From Histomonas meleagridis 2922-C6/04-290x (lineage: Eukaryota > Protista > Parabasalia): a stretch of DNA of 61,905 bases. The notes beneath the pieces were generated by a model that was given only the letters and a program-made list of their open reading frames with translations, did not search any database and was not told where the DNA came from. The stretch lies in NCBI GenBank assembly GCA_020184695.1, contig JAANOX010000197.1, positions 1 through 61,905 on the forward strand, written 5' to 3'. Made by a program: the position numbers and the translations under genes. Shown here piece by piece: positions 303-37,270 of the stretch; the first letter of the stretch is position 1; every line of letters begins with the position of its first letter.

Positions 303-854
303 ATGCCAGTAATTCTTTCAATCGATATTGGAGTAAAGAATCTTGCTTATGCTATAATCACTTATCCAGCTGTTACTTTTGATGTTATTGATATATCAAA
401 ACCAAATAATGCAGTTGATAGATGCAGGTTGGTTCAAAGATTGATTGGTAACATTATTAGAAAGAATCATGTTTCTGATGTAGTTATTGAAAAACAATTT
501 CCACAAAATACTGTTGCTATGGAATTAATGTATAGCATTATTACTCTTGCTTTAAATTTTACATCTCAAATCTATTTGTTTGATACAAAAGGAAAATTTA
601 CATATCTTGATTTAGAATATGATACGAAAAATATAGCTCATAAAAAATTAAGCGTAAATATTGCTAGGAACTTTTTAAAGTTTGTCGAAGGAGATCATTT
701 TGATTCATGGAACTCATTTCAAATGCTATATAATATCGAAAAATATAAGAAACAAGATGATATAGCAGATGCTATAAATCAGGGAATGGTTTATGGTTTA
801 AAAAATAAACTTATACATATTACTAAGAAGGAATATAAAGAAATGATTTTTTAA
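303..854 (+). CDS. Poxvirus A22-like RuvC Holliday-junction resolvase
   Basis: ILSIDIGVKNLAY (first Asp), VVIEKQ (Glu) and KKQDDIADA (Asp pair): the A22/Ydc2-type RuvC catalytic pattern in a 183-aa protein. Confidence 0.8.
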   Translation: MPVILSIDIGVKNLAYAIITYPAVTFDVIDISKPNNAVDRCRLVQRLIGNIIRKNHVSDVVIEKQFPQNTVAMELMYSIITLALNFTSQIYLFDTKGKFTYLDLEYDTKNIAHKKLSVNIARNFLKFVEGDHFDSWNSFQMLYNIEKYKKQDDIADAINQGMVYGLKNKLIHITKKEYKEMIF

Positions 855-902: not shown

Positions 903-3149
903 ATGCCGAAAAGATATAGTACAGAAGAAATTAGAGACTTGTTCGAACGTTATGGTCACACACTACCGGAGAATTTTGTTTATAGAAATAATACTACACA
1001 TATTAATGTTACTGACGAACAAACAGGAAGAAGATAAAGATCTACATTAATACAGTTGAGATATCGAATAGATCACGGCAGAAGTGAATATGATTTTCCG
1101 CAATATATGAATATGGCAATTGATAACGAAGAACCGAAGTATAAAACATCATTTGAGAGATTTAGAGATAAGCAAGATGATTATTTCAAAAATGAGACTC
1201 ATGAATTCCAGCAAGAAGTTTTTCAGAACACTCAAAAAATGATTAGATTTATGAAGCAAAAAGATTTTACAATGAATTTTGACGGAAATGTCGATTCCTT
1301 CTTATACTCACTAATGCTTGCACTAAAAGAAATAGGTCCTCGAATCAATAAAGATATCAGAATGACAATCATTGATGAAAACGGCAAAATACAATACGCT
1401 CATGCTAACAGAAATACTGTTGACTTTCTCCAATCATTATTTGAAACAGGAAGAGAGATTAGTGATTATAACAAAGTTGCTTTAGACTCATATCTCAACA
1501 TTAGATCAATTCATTTTGAATTTAGAGATCTCAAAAAAGGAAAAAGAATTAATCCCGGATTCTTTCCGTATATTAATAAAACAAATATTGATCTAACAAA
1601 ATTCGGAATATTTAATTCGGTAAATAATGAAAAAATTAATGATTCATGCTTGATCCAAGCATTTGAGGCGAGTAAATTATTTTCAGAAAATGATATAAAC
1701 ATGTTAAGAAGATCATTTATTACAACAAGAACTGTTTCTCGCAGTGAGTTAAAGAAGATATCAGATCTGTTAAAAATTAATGTGTACTGTAAGATTGGTA
1801 GCATACACTGTACATTCGGCGAACAGTACGATAAAAAGATAAAATTAATAATTATTGATGACCACTATATGCTGTATGATAATGTTAATGTTAATGAGTT
1901 TTATTTATAGAATTATGAAAGGATTAATAAAGAACCAAGATTTAAGAACCATCAGCGGAAGATGATGCTATTAAAATATGATGATGAGAGATATTCGTTC
2001 AGTAAGAAAGGTATAAGCATTAAAAAATCAATACAGATCATGAAAGAGGAAAATTTATTGGTTCCAATAGATCAAAAGACATTTAACAAGTTATGTTGGA
2101 GTTATGAGCGGAAGAGTGAAAAATATAATAGTTTCCGAAAGATTGTTATTCCTGATAAAAAAGAGTTACCGTCATTTGTTAAGAAAGTAAATCAAACTAA
2201 GTCATTTTTTGGATATACTCCTGAAGAGAATGAAGTGCATGAACGTTTGCAAGAAGTGCAGGATTTAGTTGATTCGTTAGGTGTTAAAATTAATGTTGCC
2301 AGGTATTATAAATTTGCTGATCTAATGCAAAAGATCATGTATGAATACGGATGTTTTGATAATGTTTATGAACTATCAGGAGATATAGCAGAAAAGATTC
2401 GAAGTAAATTAGCATTTCCTCGTACTATATGGAGCAAAATACATTTAAAGAAGAAGTTATACTATATAGATATTAATGGTGCTTATATGTCAAGTATGAC
2501 AAATATTCCGACAGGAATACCTGACGACGATGGAAACTTTAGCGGAGAGAATACAAAAATAAAAGAACTTATCGAATTATTATATCAGAAAAGATCAGAA
2601 GCAAAGGCTAACGGTAACGACAAACTAGCAATGACAATTAAGTTTTTGATGAACAGTTGTTGGGGATTTTCAATAAAGAAACCCAGTAATATTAAGCATA
2701 AGCGAACGAATGATGTAAATAATTATGCCGAAACATTTGCACCTTATGTATTGAAATATACTTATAATGAAGATGGTATATCAGGATTTGTCGATACAGT
2801 AAACGCTTATGTCGAACATTACTATTATCCACAATTTGCAAGAAATGTTCTAAAAAACTTTAATGATAAAATGAATGAGTTAAAGAAAATGGTTAATGTT
2901 TATTACTCAGAAGTTGATTCTGCGTTAGTGTCGGAGGAAAACTTTTTATTATAAAAAGACAAAGGCTTTATTGGAAATGAACTTGGAAAATTCAAAGTTG
3001 AACACATATTTACAGAAGTATATTTCAAATCTGCTGATTGTTGGATTGGCAAACATGCTGACGGAACATATTATTATCATCTGACGCCAAAACTTAAACA
3101 ATACTGTCAGAATAAGGCTGATCCAATTAAAGCACTGATGTTAATTTGA
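903..3149 (+). pseudogene. Family-B (protein-primed-type) DNA polymerase with N-terminal vOTU-like domain; three in-frame stops
   Basis: Track ORFs 1056-1910 and 1962-2954 and the flanking sequence are one frame from ATG 903 to TGA 3147-3149, interrupted by TAA 1035, TAG 1908 and TAA 2952. Motif A YYIDINGAY, motif B KFLMNSCWG, motif C YYSEVDS and downstream ELGKFKVE. NDSCLIQAF...DDHYML is an OTU-like Cys/His pair. Confidence 0.85.
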
Positions 3150-3386: not shown

Positions 3387-3404
3387 GGAAGTGTAATTTT
3401 TGGG

Positions 3405-3550
3405 ATTAATGACAGGACTATTTAACAAGACGGTCTTTTCGGAAATTATGGAACTAAAGTCTTTTTATACGAGGAAGAATTAGCAATTGAGGTTTTGCTG
3501 AAATCAATGATTTTTGGGTCATTTTTATGTGATTCACACGTTATATTAAA
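3405..3550 (+). repeat. Degenerate copy of the element non-coding module
   Basis: attaatgacaggacta...ctttttatacgaggaagaattagcaattgaggttttgctg aligns with 4575-4670; the right inverted arm is missing. Confidence 0.75.
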
Positions 3551-4552: not shown

Positions 4553-4571
4553 ATGAATGATACATTATATT

Positions 4572-4975
4572 TGGAATTAATGACAGGACTATATGACAGG
4601 ACAGTCTACCTGGAATTGATGAAACCAAACTCTTTTTACACGAGGAAGGATTAGCAATTGAGGTTTTGCTGTTTTCGATGATTTTCACGTCAAAATTTAA
4701 GGTATTACTGCGAAAAGGTATGTTTTGATGTCAAACCTAGTTAAAATTACGTGAAAATGTATAGAAAAGGTATGTTTTGATGTCAAACCTAGTTAAAATG
4801 ATAGTAATTACTACAAAAACCCATGAAAATCACTATTTTTCATAACTTTTGCTATTTCCAAAATTTCTACTTTCTACAACTACTTACTTTTTATTTATCC
4901 AGGTAGACTGTCCTGTCATATAGTCCTATATATAATAATAAAAATAATTTTGATTCGACATTCCCGCCAAGTGAG
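4572..4975. repeat. Element non-coding module with perfect 30-bp inverted arms and two 36-bp direct repeats
   Basis: 4585-4614 (aggactatatgacaggacagtctacctgga) is the exact reverse complement of 4898-4927. gaaaaggtatgttttgatgtcaaacctagttaaaat occurs at 4712-4747 and 4764-4799. The module is homologous to 11131-11545. Confidence 0.9.
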
Positions 4976-5677: not shown

Positions 5678-7198
5678 TTAATCACTAAATACAGCAATAA
5701 TGGTATCACTAATGATTCCAGTAACTCTTTCAACAATCATTTTATTTATTTTTCCCGTCAGTACTGTTTCATCATCTAATATTGAACCATCATATAGTAC
5801 AGTATCACCGATATTATATATTGATGAGTCAGTAACACTAAAATAATAATCACCGTGTGAAGCAAAATCTATTGTATCTTGATTAACGGAGACATCGCTC
5901 CTAATGTTACCACCAGTTTGAAATATTTCTCCTGCTGCATGTTTTGCAACACATATTCCGATAAATTCTTTATATGTTCCTGTTGATTTTACACTAGGAA
6001 TACAATCTGTTGCTGTTGTTTCCGTCACATAATTTTTATCTTTGAGTGAATAAACATTTCCGCTAATAAATACTGAAGAACCGATAGTATAATTGCTTAA
6101 ATCTTCTTCTATCGGCGCATTATGCACAATAGTTTTATTAATCTGACCTCCACCACTACTTGATATAATAGCTTTTCTGTATGTATCATCTGATATATGC
6201 CAAAATCCTAATTCATTTTCATATGATGCTATTCTCCAAGTATAAATACCTGGTGCTTCTGTTGAATTATTATGAAAAACGAAATCTAAAAATCTTCCTG
6301 TTTTTAATACAGAATTTTGATAAGGAACAATATCAGCAGGTTGATGAGTATGAGATGATGGAGTAAATGTTGATGGTTTATCAGTAATATCATTATAACT
6401 ATGAGTATGTGTATTTAAAGAAAAATTATTAACAGGTATATCATTAATAGAAATACAATTTATATTACCATCAATTCCATTGAAACTAATAACACCATCA
6501 TTATTATCAAGTTTACCGAAATACATAACATTGCCGGCAGTTCTTATTCTCCAAGAATAATCACTATTTAAATCATTATTATCATGAAAGTCAATATACT
6601 GTCCAACTTCCATTACACCATCTGATTTAATAGTCGCGATTGATGTAATATTTACTGTTGAATTAGAACCTCCTCCAATACTGTTTGAAATATAATATCG
6701 GTTAATGGAATTTGCGACAAGACTACCATTAATAGCTAAATCATTATTAATTATTTCATGTGTATGATTTTTTAATGCAAAATCATCTGTTGAATAACCA
6801 TTAATGGTATCAATAATTAAATTTGTAATTGAAACATTATTACTATCTTCATTGATTTTTACGAATTGTGAATATAAGTCTAAAACTCTATTTATATTAC
6901 CGAACATTTCAATTATATATGCATTTTTCATTATATTTTCTCCAGTAAGTATATCATCAACTTTAATATTATTATTGATATACTTTAGATTTTTTATGCT
7001 ATTATCTAACGGTGATATTACAACATGATTTCTTCCGTAAGTGAAAACAATACTTTTATCCACACTGTTTATCTGTAGTGTGCAAATACCATTTGATAAA
7101 GTGTCGGATGTTTTGCTGTGATTACTGTAAACAACACTATTTTTATTCATCAACGCGCGCACTATATTTTCTATTTTTTCAAACTGTGAATTTGACAT
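5678..7198 (-). CDS. Virion fibre / phage tail-fibre-like protein with putative C-terminal chaperone domain
   Basis: Likely start MSNSQF at 7198. GVMEVGQYIDFH..DYSWRI module with a second copy (GRFLDF..IYTWRI). HTH repeats (NHTHEI; THTHSYNDITDKPSTFTPSSHTH). C-terminal EFIGIC...ASHGDYYF...IGDTVLYDG. Confidence 0.65.
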   Translation of the reverse strand: MSNSQFEKIENIVRALMNKNSVVYSNHSKTSDTLSNGICTLQINSVDKSIVFTYGRNHVVISPLDNSIKNLKYINNNIKVDDILTGENIMKNAYIIEMFGNINRVLDLYSQFVKINEDSNNVSITNLIIDTINGYSTDDFALKNHTHEIINNDLAINGSLVANSINRYYISNSIGGGSNSTVNITSIATIKSDGVMEVGQYIDFHDNNDLNSDYSWRIRTAGNVMYFGKLDNNDGVISFNGIDGNINCISINDIPVNNFSLNTHTHSYNDITDKPSTFTPSSHTHQPADIVPYQNSVLKTGRFLDFVFHNNSTEAPGIYTWRIASYENELGFWHISDDTYRKAIISSSGGGQINKTIVHNAPIEEDLSNYTIGSSVFISGNVYSLKDKNYVTETTATDCIPSVKSTGTYKEFIGICVAKHAAGEIFQTGGNIRSDVSVNQDTIDFASHGDYYFSVTDSSIYNIGDTVLYDGSILDDETVLTGKINKMIVERVTGIISDTIIAVFSD

Positions 7199-7214
7199 TT
7201 TAATAAAATAAAAA
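7193..7214. promoter_or_regulatory. Class-2 motif / 15-bp bidirectional intergenic spacer
   Basis: tgacattttaataaaataaaaa is identical at 7193 and 8201; on the minus strand it reads TTTTTATTTTATTAAAATG(TCA). Confidence 0.55.
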
Positions 7215-8026
7215 TGTTTAAAACTGAAGATCAATTTAGCACGATCGCATCACAACTTCCGGTCGAAGAAAATTATACAAATCTCGACATTGATCAGTAT
7301 GAAACACTTAATGAACAGAACGGATACACATTCCGTTATCCTCAGCGTTGGTTAGAAAGTCTTTCACAGAATAAAGCGATTGGTGTTAGGAGGCTAGACA
7401 TTATTCCGACAACTCATGTTATATCGTTACGTTTTAATGTAGTGAAGCCTGATAGTGTTTCAGGAACGTCGCCATCACCGCGAACAATTTCATTTCAAGT
7501 AATGGCTCAAAACACTTTATTGGAGATAATGACAGGAATATGTAATGACTTTAATTCATTATTTGCTAGCTATAGATTACATTATACTTATGATGACAGC
7601 GGAATGTTATCAATATACTGTGATTATGTCGGAAGTGATGATACAGAGTCAATTCCAGCTAATTTTTCAATATTTGACGCTTCATCAACTAATATAAATA
7701 CTAAAGAATTTTTAAGATTTCTTAACCAAGATGAAACTGATATAAATTATCTCTCAAATCCTTCAAACACAAGAGTATTTCGTAATGTTTGTAACTCAGA
7801 ATATATTGAGTTCCATGCATCATTTAGTGATTCAAAAAGGAGATTTATCGGAATTAAAGGAGACTTTTACGAAAAGCCTACAGTATTATATAATGCTCCT
7901 ACTGACGGAAGCACTTTTAACATTCGTTTTACCACTAACGGCAAAAATAACATTTATCCCAAATATTGTCGATTTATTATTCAATCAGTATTCTTATATA
8001 ATTATCGAAAGACTGTTGTTTTATGA
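7214..8026 (+). CDS. Putative minor capsid (penton-like single jelly-roll) protein, paralogue 1
   Basis: 270 aa, beta-rich, with an insertion. N-terminal YTFRYP..AIGVRRL and C-terminal FNIRFTTNG..FIIQSVF resemble polinton penton architecture; located next to the ATPase and fibre. Confidence 0.5.
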   Translation: MFKTEDQFSTIASQLPVEENYTNLDIDQYETLNEQNGYTFRYPQRWLESLSQNKAIGVRRLDIIPTTHVISLRFNVVKPDSVSGTSPSPRTISFQVMAQNTLLEIMTGICNDFNSLFASYRLHYTYDDSGMLSIYCDYVGSDDTESIPANFSIFDASSTNINTKEFLRFLNQDETDINYLSNPSNTRVFRNVCNSEYIEFHASFSDSKRRFIGIKGDFYEKPTVLYNAPTDGSTFNIRFTTNGKNNIYPKYCRFIIQSVFLYNYRKTVVL

Positions 8027-8237: not shown

Positions 8238-8999
8238 ATGTATAATGCTGTAATTGATTACACAATATCTTCTTATGATGCTACACATTATAACAGAATG
8301 AACATTAATCTTCCATCACCTCCGACAAGAATTGCCAAAATGATTGTTATGTCATTAACGACAAAATGTTCGATAGTAGTTATTGAAAAAGATGATTTTA
8401 TACAGATTAACGGGAAAAAATATTATTTCACTACTGACTACACCGATCTTAATTCACAAACATTCATACTTCTGTTAAACTCACTCATCCAAGAGTCGGG
8501 TGTAACTTCTGAAGTCGATGAGGCGGGAAGAATTATCTTTAGTTCTGACACTGCTTTTACTATTGACTCTGCATCATATAATATTATTCAGATATCCGGA
8601 CTATATTCACAAGTACTTCCTATCCCTGCATCTTATAATGAAAAATATGAAATAACTGCTGAAAGCGTCGGAAACACTTTATCAACACCTGTTTTATATC
8701 TATTGTCAAATGTTGGGAAAAGTTCATACAGAAACTTAAATGAAACCATTAACATATCAAAAATTGTTTTAAGAATTAATAACTCCTTCTCTGCAAACTT
8801 TCCGATAATAGTGTCGAACGCTGATTTTGAGATTGAATTAAACAGTAATGACCTATCACACTTACAGTTAACATTAGTTGATGCTAATCTTCATGAGGTT
8901 CATTTATTGAATCCATTATATATTACAATAAGTGTTCAAGGTTTGCCGGATGAAGATTTATTCGCTATTGAACAAAACGAAAGCAATCGAACTAAGTGA
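8238..8999 (+). CDS. Putative minor capsid (penton) protein, paralogue 2
   Basis: C-terminal LSHLQLTLVDANLHEVHLLNPLYITISVQ fits the polinton/PLV penton C-terminal pattern; N-terminal strand NINLPSP..KMIVMSL. Confidence 0.65.
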   Translation: MYNAVIDYTISSYDATHYNRMNINLPSPPTRIAKMIVMSLTTKCSIVVIEKDDFIQINGKKYYFTTDYTDLNSQTFILLLNSLIQESGVTSEVDEAGRIIFSSDTAFTIDSASYNIIQISGLYSQVLPIPASYNEKYEITAESVGNTLSTPVLYLLSNVGKSSYRNLNETINISKIVLRINNSFSANFPIIVSNADFEIELNSNDLSHLQLTLVDANLHEVHLLNPLYITISVQGLPDEDLFAIEQNESNRTK

Positions 9000-10530: not shown

Positions 10531-11106
10531 ATGGAATCAAACTGGATCGAATGTGTCGTCGATAATGATTATGAAATTAATACATCATTTCCGCATCAAA
10601 TCCGTAGGAAAAATAATAAAAGAATTATTAGTGAACATGTTGATAACACAATAGGAGGTTATGTTATATGTCATTTAAACAACAAGAAGTATCAAAAACA
10701 CCGCATTATTGCTTTGCAGTTCATTGAAAATGATGATCCAAAAACTAAAAAATATGTGGATCACATCAATCATATCAGAACAGATAACAGAATTGAAAAT
10801 CTTCGATGGGTATCGTCGAATAAAAATAATTTAAATAAATCATCGCATTTTGGCGTAGAATATGAATATGTTGATGATATACCTAATGATTCAATTGAAA
10901 TATTACAATACGGCAAACATAACTTTGTCGATTACTATTATGTCGAAGAAGAAGATAAATTTTATTTCTGGAACCGAATTAAATTTAGGAAACTTAATAT
11001 CTGCTTCAATAAATGTGGTTATGCATTTGTTTATGCAAATGATATTGATGGAAAAAATGTTAGAATATATTATTCAAAGTTCAAAAAAGAATATGGGTTA
11101 GTGTAA
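10531..11106 (+). CDS. HNH homing-type endonuclease (HNH_3-like)
   Basis: KHRIIALQFI...VDHINHIRTDNRIENLRWVS..NN. Confidence 0.9.
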   Translation: MESNWIECVVDNDYEINTSFPHQIRRKNNKRIISEHVDNTIGGYVICHLNNKKYQKHRIIALQFIENDDPKTKKYVDHINHIRTDNRIENLRWVSSNKNNLNKSSHFGVEYEYVDDIPNDSIEILQYGKHNFVDYYYVEEEDKFYFWNRIKFRKLNICFNKCGYAFVYANDIDGKNVRIYYSKFKKEYGLV

Positions 11107-11130
11107 GCGTTGGATCAAAAATTATTTTTA

Positions 11131-11871
11131 GAATTAATGTTATCATAAAGGACACTATGACAGGACAGTCTTCCCGGAATTGATGAAACCAAACTCTTTT
11201 TACACGAGGAGGAAATAGAAATTACAAAATCCCTGAAATCAGTGATTTTCACGTCATTTTTCGAGGTATTACTGCGAAAATGGGTGTTTAGATGTCAAAC
11301 CTATTAAAAATGATAGGTATTCATGTTAAAATGGCGTGTTTTGACGTCAAACCTATTAAAAATGATAGGTAATGCTTCTAAAACCACCTAAAATCAGTGA
11401 TTTTCACCACTTTTGCTATTTCCAGAATTTCTACTTTCTACAACTACTTACTTTTTTATTTATCCAGGTAGACTGTCCTATTATAATGTCCTATATATAA
11501 AAATAAAAAAAATTCTAGTTTCGACATCTTCCGATAGTGATTAACAGTAAATAATAACAAATAAATCTAGTACAGACATCTTCCGATAGTGGGTAAACAG
11601 TAAATATTAGTGTAGACATCTTCCGTAAATGATTAGCAGAAATATAGTGTCAAACCTTAAATTTACCCCGTTTTTAGTGATTTTCGATAGTTTTGCTATT
11701 TCCAGAATTTCTACTTTCTACAACTATTTACTTTTTATTTATCCAGGTAGACTGTCCTATTATAATGTCCTATATATAAAAATAAAAAAAATTCTAGTTT
11801 CGACATCTCCGTATAGTGATTAACAGTAAATAATAACAAATAAATCTAGTGCAGACATCTTCCGATAGTGG
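11131..11871. repeat. Terminal repeat region of the element
   Basis: Module homologous to 4572-4975 (imperfect 30-bp inverted arms, 11149-11178 vs 11463-11492, 25/30). A ~181-bp direct duplication (11411-11592 and 11691-11871). Five copies of a gacatcttccgatagtg-like motif (11523, 11575, 11615, 11802, 11854). Confidence 0.9.
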
Positions 11872-13644: not shown

Positions 13645-14839
13645 ATAAACGGTCTCCCCGATAATTTATTTTTTTTCAAGAAATCTCGGTGGTTGAATGT
13701 AATACTTACGATTAAAAATAAACAATATCTCTGCCTAATGATGTACTTATTATTTATTGTAATATTAAGATTTTTGATAAAATATGACAGCTAATTAAAT
13801 TTTATATTGATATAAGATGAAAAAATCGTTATATTACATTTTTAGAATTTTTCCTTATATGGTCCTGAAAAAAAAGAAATTGAAGAAAATAAAGAAAAAA
13901 AAGAAAATTAAGAAAAATGATGAATAAATCATCATGAAAGCAAAATTCAATTTTGAGATTAATATGCGAAATTCCATTTAATAATGTGATAATATATTTT
14001 ATGAAACAAATTTAGAATCCATAAAAAATAAGAGAGAAAAAACAAAAAACGGAATATGCATTAAAAAGAACATCAAAAAAATTGAATTCAAATCGATCAA
14101 ATTGCATTCAATATAAAAAAATAAATTTTCAAATGAATAGAGAGGGATTAATATAAGTGATAAAACAAAATAAATTACAAATATATTATCGCATAATAAA
14201 TCAAAATCAAATGATAGAGAGATATTGAAAATTTGAAGATAAAAATTTCAAATGTAATTTGCGAACACATTTCAATAGATATTATTAATATTATACTCTG
14301 TTTATATAATTTATACATCCATGTAATTTTTTATTAATAATAAATTGGATTTAATCTATATAATTACGAAATAAATATGTTTCAAAACCTATTTTCTTGT
14401 TTTGACTTTTAGGCTTTTTTCAATGAGTTTTAATCGTATTTTTAGACTTTAAACAACATTATCTCAATAAGTAAAGATAATCACAAAATATAAACCCAAG
14501 TATAAAACTGAGATACAACATTAATTATAATTTTGCATTATTGAAAAATTCGAATTTTTAGGTTTGATATGAACAGAACTTAATGATTAACCAATAAAAG
14601 TTAAAAACAGCTAAATATTTATTTATATTTTAGAAATTGTAATAATGTAATAGAACGGTTTTTTCATCTCATATTAATATAAAATTTAATTAGCTGTCAT
14701 ATTTTATCAAAAATCTTAATATTACAATAAATAATAAGTACATCATTAGGCAGAAATATTGTTCATTTTTAATCGTAAGTATTACATTCAACCACCGAGA
14801 TTTCTTGGAAAAAAATAAATTTCCAGGGAGGTCGTTTAT
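13645..14839. repeat. Fold-back inverted repeat (~185-bp arms, ~820-bp spacer); possible non-autonomous TIR element
   Basis: 13645-13830 is the reverse complement of 14654-14839 with few mismatches (core aaatctcggtggttgaatgtaatacttacgattaaaaat...). No TSD found. Confidence 0.85.
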
Positions 14840-36825: not shown

Positions 36826-37270
36826 TGCCACTGGAATTTGTAAATAAAACCGTTTTCAGTTGGAGAGCATCCTATAACGGAGTGATATGTGTTATTATAT
36901 ATATTAATAAATTTATTCATTCTAGATGGTGTAATGTATGTATATTTTTCATCATGAAATTGATGTTTAGATTTCTCATTTGGTGTTTTCATATCACGTG
37001 ATGTTCTAATAAATCTATCTATAATACCTAAACTACTATGATTTTTATCTGTAATAATATGCATACGAACATGATTATCTGCTAATAATTTTATATTATT
37101 TTTATCTGAAAGACCAGGCCCCTCATCAGATGTTAATTTTATAGGATGATATTTATTAATAAATTCATATAATGTATGATGTACACAAGGGATTCCATTT
37201 CCATGATGCTCATGATATACAAGAGCTTTGGTCAATGCAAATAAAATACTTCCAACTCTAGTTCTCTATA
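36826..37270 (-). pseudogene. Maverick-type retroviral-like (rve) integrase fragment inside the transposon
   Basis: KLTSDEG, NHSSLGIIDRFIRT and YNNTYHSVIGCSP motifs; no start, and the frame runs into the left TIR. Confidence 0.8.

What the first reader, a model, noticed from the sequence alone, without database searches (positions are those of the whole stretch)
5678..7198. Bacteriophage-type tail-fibre modules in a eukaryotic virus fibre
Seen: GVMEVGQYIDFH...DY.WRI and a diverged second copy, HTH-bounded repeats (HTHSYNDITDKPSTFTPSSHTH) and a distinct C-terminal domain. Established: His-x-His metal-binding repeats are a feature of trimeric phage fibres, and many fibres end in an intramolecular chaperone. 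From recall, not a search, the GVMEVG-YIDFH motif occurs in bacterial phage tail fibres. Inference: a gut-protist virus acquired a phage receptor-binding module by horizontal transfer, raising the question of whether it binds bacterial or host glycans.
Basis: partly seen in the sequence, partly recalled or inferred. Interest (0 to 1): 0.7.

Follow-up and report, generated by a model that had tools for sequence, protein, structure and literature searches.

The report
Phage-style fibre of a protist virus
This gene, inside a virus-like element in a likely gut-protist genome, encodes a predicted three-stranded attachment fibre that shares two short building blocks with bacteriophage tail fibres and ends in a likely folding-helper domain, a pattern already known from related viruses, here with previously unlabelled parts.

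Summary
Observation confirmed; interpretation partly. The 506-aa ORF lies in a damaged Polinton-like element flanked by parabasalid-type genes. The GVMEVGQYIDFH module is real and shared with tailed-phage fibres (213 IMG/VR stretches, 33 prokaryotic loci, PHROG tail fibre E 9e-6). A diverged second copy is real. The His-x-His unit matches phage tail repeats. Residues 180-506 are predicted to form a trimer (0.76 against 0.00 for the best control). But the module is an optional piece (13 of 150 family representatives), usually internal, with no evidence of receptor binding. The tree names no donor. Phage-like fibres in Polinton-like viruses, including Trichomonas elements, are published. New here: the constant part is the C-terminal 154 aa (254 representatives, no Pfam or phage sequence hit). 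It is predicted to fold as a double beta-tulip like the phi29 gp12 chaperone domain (Z 8.2, tied with capsid cement proteins). A near-invariant His stands where phi29 has Glu695. It likely fills the chaperone role that S74 domains fill in other Polinton-like viruses; S74 is reported absent from parabasalid ones. Verdict: new variant of a known kind.

The parts
5678..7198 (-). Predicted trimeric fibre protein, 506 aa (P0001)
6800..7198 (-). N-terminal domain, residues 1-133; likely capsid anchor (inferred); shared only with a subfamily
   Evidence: 41-55% to close relatives; no phage match; 18 of 18 loci with it also carry the 7214-type neighbour gene, but these are near-copies of one element
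6758..6766 (-). First HxH (145-147) in a partial linker unit resembling 243-270
6479..6649 (-). Phage-shared beta module 1 (184-240), no Pfam family
   Evidence: PHROG 22284 tail fiber E 9.2e-6
6326..6427 (-). HxH-bounded phage-tail-repeat-like unit (258-291); His 264/266/283/285 lie in the predicted trimer interface; metal binding inferred
   Evidence: PHROG tail families E 1.7e-7 and 5.4e-7; PDB 9D93 tail collar fibre gp4 E 5.3e-6; Pfam PTR E 0.028, below cut-off
6152..6331 (-). Diverged module copy 2 (290-349), directly before the C-terminal domain; would be the distal tip if that domain is released
   Evidence: close relatives of this copy in P0084 and P0027
5681..6142 (-). C-terminal domain (353-506), predicted double beta-tulip; likely intramolecular chaperone; conserved T356, H359, C399, H448, G449, D450
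7214..8026 (+). Divergently transcribed neighbour, 270 aa, conserved next to the fibre in relatives; possible virion protein (untested)
8238..8999 (+). 253-aa protein; its pattern recalls Polinton minor capsid (penton) proteins (recalled, not confirmed)
   Evidence: 67% to relatives; no PDB match; a 27% homologue directly follows the fibre in L043/L044
9014..9919 (-). A32-like packaging ATPase
   Evidence: Pfam Pox_A32 E 0.0011, below cut-off; PHROG 2666 E 4.3e-7
903..3146 (+). Protein-primed DNA polymerase B, interrupted by in-frame stops
   Evidence: Pfam DNA_pol_B_2 E 2e-7; 45% over 803 aa to the one-piece ORF in L021
303..854 (+). A22/RuvC-like Holliday junction resolvase
   Evidence: Pfam Pox_A22 E 9.8e-14
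10531..11106 (+). HNH endonuclease near the likely right end of the element (about 11,900; end not proven)

Best explanation
This is likely the trimeric attachment fibre of a Polinton-like virus integrated in a likely parabasalid gut protist, with a shaft that shares two short modules with phage tail fibres and a C-terminal domain predicted to act as a folding chaperone. Mechanism, steps marked: (1) The gene lies among polymerase, packaging-ATPase and resolvase genes (shown). (2) Three chains wind together along residues 183-353 (predicted). (3) The N-terminal 133 aa anchor the fibre on the capsid vertex (inferred). (4) HxH motifs from three chains bind a metal on the axis and stiffen the shaft (inferred from T4-type fibres). 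(5) The GVMEVG modules are interlocking beta knobs that are gained, lost and duplicated in the family (mosaicism shown; structural role inferred). (6) The double beta-tulip brings the three C-termini into register, as phi29 gp12 D4 does (inferred from fold and position). It may then cut itself off just before T356 using H359 (speculative, about 0.35), leaving module copy 2 as the tip. (7) The modules most likely entered from tailed phages long ago (inferred; no donor found). The receptor is most likely on the protist surface (inferred by default).
For: Context. Trimer: score 0.76 (median of 3 runs), best of 3 controls 0.00, runs agree in at least 73% of contacts, pLDDT at least 65. The mark was reached by 21 of 30 solved pairs and 0 of 23 single chains; calibration was on two copies and on microbes, so the counts hold only roughly, and the alignment was not used. 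Module in phage: 213 of 280 pattern matches in IMG/VR, 33 of 72 in prokaryotic genomes, 12 of 14 family modules hit PHROG 22284 tail fiber at E up to 1. Of 55 non-family carrier proteins scanned, 16 carry S74, 2 carry Peptidase_G2 and 5 carry other tail families. C-terminal domain: model pLDDT 87; VIA Z 8.2, rmsd 3.5, 103 aligned to 3GQH, model 13-163 against 692-854; within 25 aa of the chain end in 149 of 150 representatives; T356 170 of 171, H359 168 of 172, H448 174 of 180, D450 178 of 180. Best viral fold matches are large proteins of algal giant viruses and a Colwellia phage tail fibre J, whose last domain begins F-T-G-S-H. Published: gp12 D4 tandem beta-tulips direct trimer assembly (bioRxiv 10.1101/216911, passages); S74 is absent from parabasalid PLVs (PMC12220804, section 13).
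Against: The gp12 match is tied with capsid cement proteins (Z 8.0-8.4), and Foldseek ranks cement proteins first with no E under 0.001. There is no significant sequence link to phi29 or Colwellia. The T356/H359 register rests on the first aligned residue and on spacing by eye, not on a residue-level superposition. In the trimer model only residue 450 of the domain's body is a confident contact. Glu695, recalled as the catalytic residue, is not kept. Capsid proteins were not confirmed. This copy is damaged: the polymerase is interrupted, and one near-invariant column of the C-terminal domain departs from the family. The phage-side module counts come from a search seeded with the viral module, so their scores are inflated by selection.
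Confidence: 0.68

Rival explanations
1. The C-terminal beta-tulip stays on the particle: it is the receptor-binding head, or it cements the fibre to the capsid like phage decoration proteins and the phi29 head-fibre base, with the chain pointing the other way.
For: Cement proteins tie for best fold match (8QSY Z 8.4, 9KMH Z 8.3; phi29 gp8.5 base Z 5.7). Pfam Phage_cement E 0.0025 in 3 of 33 members at E up to 1. The Atlas's nearest named cluster is a cement family, at 0.85, a lead only. A domain constant across all elements suits a capsid anchor, and the N-termini vary between subfamilies.
Against: It sits where phage carriers of the same module have S74 or G2 chaperones (18 of 55). The conserved T-x-x-H lies at the domain's first strand, where the phi29 fragment begins. 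High conservation argues against a host-specific receptor head.
Confidence: 0.22
2. One reading: the GVMEVG module is a phage receptor-binding unit taken from a gut phage, and it binds bacterial glycans, letting the virus ride bacteria into a bacterivorous protist.
For: The module is shared with gut phages and prophages; the top prokaryotic locus is Segatella copri, 47%. It abuts the C-terminal domain in 4 of 13 family carriers, and the diverged copy does so here. Precedent: virophage DSLV2 fibres are reported to bind Synechococcus LPS (PMC12724248, abstract and discussion).
Against: 137 of 150 family representatives lack the module at 25 bits (many are fragments; 88 of 99 with at least 150 aa upstream lack it). 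In phages it lies 26-1279 aa before the S74-like site in the 14 of 59 where one was found. It also occurs in prophage-like loci of non-gut bacteria and in seawater phages. No lectin fold was detected (uninformative).
Confidence: 0.12
3. The shared modules reflect ancient common ancestry or virus-to-phage flow, with no phage-to-Polinton transfer in this lineage.
For: The 55-column tree is unresolved (6 of 82 branches starred). One clade of viral copies is not rejected (p-AU 0.848). There is no compositional trace of import.
Against: The module is spread over many phage and prophage lineages, while its eukaryotic-virus carriers found here are confined to this family of gut-associated elements, which fits a later entry.
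Confidence: 0.15
4. The stretch is a bacterial prophage contaminant or a mis-assembly, not part of a eukaryotic virus.
For: Two homologues are filed under 'Bacilli bacterium' MAGs, and the Histomonas homologues carry phage-style names.
Against: Protein-primed PolB, A32-like ATPase and A22 resolvase flank it. The same gene block recurs in independent gut contigs. The N- and C-terminal domains have no match in 50,697 phage records. The rest of the window holds eukaryotic genes.
Confidence: 0.02

Closest known systems
Phage-like fibres of Polinton-like viruses (Gezel-14T Ltf; T. vaginalis collagen+PTR fibres; S74-ended fibres)
   Same: Long modular protein beside virion genes, with phage tail repeats; reported in virions for Gezel-14T (bioRxiv 2022.07.28.501842, passages; PMC12220804, section 13).
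   Different: No S74, collagen, laminin G or gp36 family hit on this protein; ends in an unlabelled beta-tulip domain; carries a module with no Pfam family.
phi29 gp12 D4 / Peptidase_G2 (PF11962) intramolecular chaperone
   Same: Predicted tandem beta-tulip fold, C-terminal position on a trimer, same start register.
   Different: No sequence match; His instead of Glu695; upstream part is a thin fibre, not an enzymatic beta-helix spike.
Capsid cement/decoration proteins (lambda gpD-like, herpes triplex, phi29 gp8.5 base)
   Same: Same fold family, Z up to 8.4.
   Different: Those are stand-alone or N-terminal domains; here the domain always ends a long fibre-like chain.
Mycobacteriophage tail collar fibre gp4 (PDB 9D93) and Pfam PTR (PF12789)
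   Same: The 267-296 unit aligns closely (E 5.3e-6).
   Different: About 30 aa only; PTR score is below cut-off in this protein, above it in relative P0088.
Virophage DSLV2 tripartite tail proteins
   Same: Phage-derived fibre next to the minor capsid gene; raises the same bacteria-versus-host question (PMC12724248).
   Different: That is a heterotrimer with a T4 gp37-like tip and collar domain; neither was detected here.

Membership tests
Polinton/Polinton-like virus | Protein-primed PolB | tested here: met
   (interrupted by stops)
Polinton/Polinton-like virus | A32-like packaging ATPase | tested here: met
   Pfam E 0.0011 (below cut-off) and PHROG E 4.3e-7
Polinton/Polinton-like virus | Double jelly-roll major and single jelly-roll minor capsid proteins | tested here: inconclusive
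   Two candidate 540-aa genes of relatives have no match in the window, which starts inside the element; no PDB sequence match for either candidate; not folded
Polinton/Polinton-like virus | Integrase and terminal inverted repeats | tested here: inconclusive
   Left end lies outside the window; rve-like gene in relative L002 (E 1.9e-4); no end pair found
Trimeric viral fibre | Intertwined homotrimer | tested here: met
   Prediction only: 0.76 against 0.00
Trimeric viral fibre | Present on virions | not testable with these tools
   No proteomics available
Phage tail repeat (PF12789) | Pfam score above cut-off | tested here: not met
   14.9 bits against 27; works like it by PHROG and PDB matches
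Peptidase S74 chaperone (PF13884) | Profile match and helical chaperone fold | tested here: not met
   No hit in 33 members at E up to 1; the model is nearly all beta
Peptidase_G2 / gp12 D4 | Tandem beta-tulip fold at the C-terminus | tested here: met
   Z 8.2, rmsd 3.5, 103 aligned, tied with cement proteins
Peptidase_G2 / gp12 D4 | Profile match to PF11962 | tested here: not met
Peptidase_G2 / gp12 D4 | Glu three residues after the cleavage site (E695; catalytic role recalled) | tested here: not met
   His in 168 of 172 at the position inferred by register
Peptidase_G2 / gp12 D4 | Self-cleavage and release | not testable with these tools
   Needs protein work
Receptor-binding domain | Lectin or adhesin fold, or ligand binding, in the module | tested here: inconclusive
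   59-aa monomer model, best Z 3.5, no Foldseek hit

The most novel reading that the evidence does not exclude
Gut-protist Polinton-like viruses use a so far unnamed class of self-cleaving fibre chaperone, a beta-tulip with a T-x-x-H catalytic start in place of the Glu of family G2. Its release exposes a phage-derived tip that grips gut bacteria, so the virus is eaten along with them by its bacterivorous host.
Probability: 0.1. Interest if true: 0.7.

Novelty: new variant of a known kind. Interest (0 to 1): 0.36.

Why it matters
It offers an answer to a small published gap: parabasalid Polinton-like viruses lack the S74 chaperone that ends most PLV fibres, and this family supplies a candidate substitute of a different fold. 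It gives a marker domain (254 representatives) for finding such elements in gut metagenomes, where some are filed as bacterial. It defines a phage fibre module that Pfam lacks. Conserved fibres support the view that these elements form particles. If His-based self-cleavage or bacterial binding were shown, it would add a new autoprocessing chemistry or a gut example of virus hitchhiking. As it stands, phage modules in PLV fibres are expected.

Tried and rejected
No whole genome is held for this window. The C-terminal profile found no relative in IMG/VR (149 pattern matches, none confirmed), none in phage records, NCBIfam or PDB sequences; PHROGs gave only weak rows, best E 0.008. A word-index search with residues 160-262 returned nothing at E 0.01 among 210 candidates; this is weak evidence, since known carriers were missed too. 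Fold searches with the 59-aa module monomer were uninformative. Profile comparisons to the phi29 and Colwellia domains were not significant. The module tree could not name a donor. PDB sequence searches for the candidate capsid proteins found nothing. The Atlas does not hold this protein; a Histomonas homologue gave only leads. Whether the polymerase stops stand in the reads, and whether the gene is expressed, is left open. Xiang et al. 2009 and Myers et al. 2015 on gp12 were not held, so the role of E695 is recalled. Three look-ups of earlier findings were empty. Rejected: S74 membership; prophage contamination; recent import from a higher-GC donor (module GC3 0.19 and 0.07 against 0.17-0.26 for six other element genes).

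Full report
Setting. The ORF at 5678-7198 (-) encodes 506 aa. The first 12 kb of the window hold an A22-like resolvase, a protein-primed PolB interrupted by in-frame stops (903-3146, 45% to a one-piece relative), an A32-like ATPase and an HNH nuclease. Beyond about 12 kb come BspA leucine-rich proteins, Rabs, Myb, CDC48 and ubiquitin genes, a set I recall as typical of parabasalids. The nearest named homologues of the protein are from Histomonas meleagridis. So this is a damaged endogenous Polinton-like element whose left part lies outside the window. Its capsid genes were not confirmed.

Family. 76 homologues were found among the 7996 candidates scored, and 65 metagenome loci, many labelled human gut. 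The longer loci show the same gene block or other Polinton-type genes: PolB, ATPase, rve-like integrase, helicase. The proteins share a C-terminal domain; a subfamily shares residues 1-133; the middle is a mosaic of very different length. A profile of the C-terminal domain finds 254 representatives at 50% clustering, of which the best 150 were listed. In 149 of those 150 it ends the chain. Only 13 carry the GVMEVG module at 25 bits or more, and 30 have an HxH upstream; among the 99 with at least 150 aa upstream the counts are 11 and 24. The contexts of these 150 are unknown.

The phage module. Residues 160-262 give weak matches in 8 of 50,697 phage records (E 5e-5 to 3e-3): Cellulophaga tail proteins, a crAss-like phage and an Aeromonas jumbo phage. 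The N- and C-terminal domains give none. The trimmed module hits PHROG 22284, tail fiber (E 9.2e-6). A 14-row alignment of family modules retrieved 213 confirmed stretches in IMG/VR, 80 kept, and 33 loci in prokaryotic genomes, led by Segatella copri and including Lachnospiraceae, flavobacteria and proteobacteria; one is a family member filed in a bacterial bin. I scanned 55 of 59 non-redundant non-family carriers, dropping four short ones for the size cap: 16 carry S74, 2 Peptidase_G2, 5 other tail families and 32 nothing at E 1e-4. These searches were seeded by the motif, so identities are biased upward.

Direction. A tree of 85 modules (24 on proteins with the family's C-terminal domain; 55 columns) has 6 of 82 supported branches. 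Holding 26 rows together (the 24 plus two I judged viral before seeing the tree) is not rejected (p-AU 0.848), and the constrained tree scored higher than the quick free search. One old entry is compatible; no donor is identified. Third-position GC gives no trace of recent import.

HxH unit and trimer. Residues 258-291 match PHROG tail families (E 1.7e-7) and the collar fibre gp4 of PDB 9D93 (E 5.3e-6). HxH sites coordinating iron in T4-like fibres are described in PMC10579305 (passage). Three copies of 180-506 scored 0.76 against 0.00 for the best of three controls, with at least 73% contact agreement and pLDDT at least 65. The calibration (21 of 30 pairs, 0 of 23 single chains) was for two copies of microbial proteins and is weaker for eukaryotes; a pass may reflect likeness to solved fibres. 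The confident interface runs from 183 to 353, through both modules and the four His of the unit. It includes only residue 450 from the body of the last domain.

C-terminal domain. The AlphaFold2 model (34 sequences, pLDDT 87) is nearly all beta. Its best matches are tandem beta-tulips: capsid cement proteins (Z 8.0-8.4) tied with the phi29 gp12 C-terminal fragment 3GQH (Z 8.2, rmsd 3.5, 103 aligned, model 13-163 against 692-854). Foldseek on PDB gave no E under 0.001. Among predicted viral proteins the top rows are Tetraselmis virus 1 and Pyramimonas virus proteins and the Colwellia 9A tail fibre J (E 6e-7 to 5e-5). Model residue 13 is T356. phi29 reads S691-D692-F-A-E695 and Colwellia F-T-G-S-H at the start of the domain. 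The family has T in 170 of 171 and H in 168 of 172 three residues later, plus a conserved D-C and A-T-H-G-D, counted over 181 partly redundant stored proteins. So His takes the place of the Glu that I recall as catalytic in family G2. Sequence comparisons to both phage domains were not significant. gp12 D4 directs trimer assembly and has a noted homologue in chlorella virus VP260 (bioRxiv 10.1101/216911, passages), and is absent from the mature virion (PMC9863714, passage). I put a chaperone role at about 0.6 and self-cleavage at about 0.35.

Receptor. Nothing here shows binding. The module is optional and mostly internal: 3-4 residues before the last domain in 4 of 13 family carriers and 52-247 in the other 9; 26-1279 aa before the S74-like site in the 14 of 59 non-family rows where one was found.

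What is known. PMC12220804 (passages and part 1 of 2 of section 13; supplement not seen, and its Fig. S6 may show more architectures) reports phage-like fibres across PLVs, PTR repeats in 20 T. vaginalis PLVs, and S74 absent from parabasalid PLVs. Gezel-14T Ltf is in virions (bioRxiv 2022.07.28.501842, passages). PMC8502044 labels such genes 'Fiber' (passages). PMC12724248 (abstract and discussion) proposes LPS binding and bacterivory-mediated entry for a virophage. PMC10120064 defines a Metamonada capsid group (passages). bioRxiv 2024.03.23.586382 has no mention of fibres. Ten literature searches (listings only, apart from the papers named) showed no description of this C-terminal family or this module in such elements; the library lacks most subscription journals.

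Verdict. A real, predicted trimeric fibre with true phage-shared parts. The phenomenon is known. The additions are an unlabelled module and a conserved beta-tulip end domain that likely replaces S74 in this lineage. New variant of a known kind, interest 0.36.

Noticed in passing
window 4564-4948, 11130-11515, 11681-11871, 3396-3521: A non-coding unit of about 390 bp with 51-nt inverted ends occurs twice at about 83% identity, with partial copies, inside the element and near its right end; MITE-like or part of the viral terminus.
   Followed up: no
window 36855-37187 (-): Fragment 61% identical to the rve-like integrase of related element L002, far from the element, among host genes.
   Followed up: no
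window 13645-13850 and 14634-14839: 206-nt inverted repeat, 93% complementary, 783 nt apart, without ORF; likely a non-autonomous transposon.
   Followed up: no
window 303-854: A22/RuvC-like Holliday junction resolvase in a Polinton-like element; I recall it as more typical of large DNA viruses.
   Followed up: no
L057:286-6423 and L063:1625-2614: The same C-terminal domain on a 2046-aa protein and beside a thioredoxin gene, in contigs of 17-23% GC; possibly larger gut DNA viruses rather than Polintons.
   Followed up: partly
P0060 (798 aa, no locus): Carries the same module and HxH linkers but ends in a precomputed PF21939 domain instead of the beta-tulip: a tip swap, if it is from a related element.
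   Followed up: no
L049 and L050/L051: Two family fibre genes in tandem, each with its own C-terminal domain.
   Followed up: no
L169, P0040, P0250: Family members deposited as 'Bacilli bacterium' MAG proteins; likely mis-binned viral contigs.
   Followed up: partly
L066:4245-5780: The module-bearing gene of crAss-like phage cr125_1 has an in-frame stop under table 11; possibly a recoded stop.
   Followed up: no
L003-L026 group: Near-identical elements of about 20 kb in many human-gut assemblies carry 900-1230-aa fibres with variable HxH repeat numbers; host unknown.
   Followed up: partly
P0241 (675 aa, no locus): The C-terminal domain joined to phospholipase-D-type Pfam domains in one record; chimera or real fusion not checked.
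   Followed up: no
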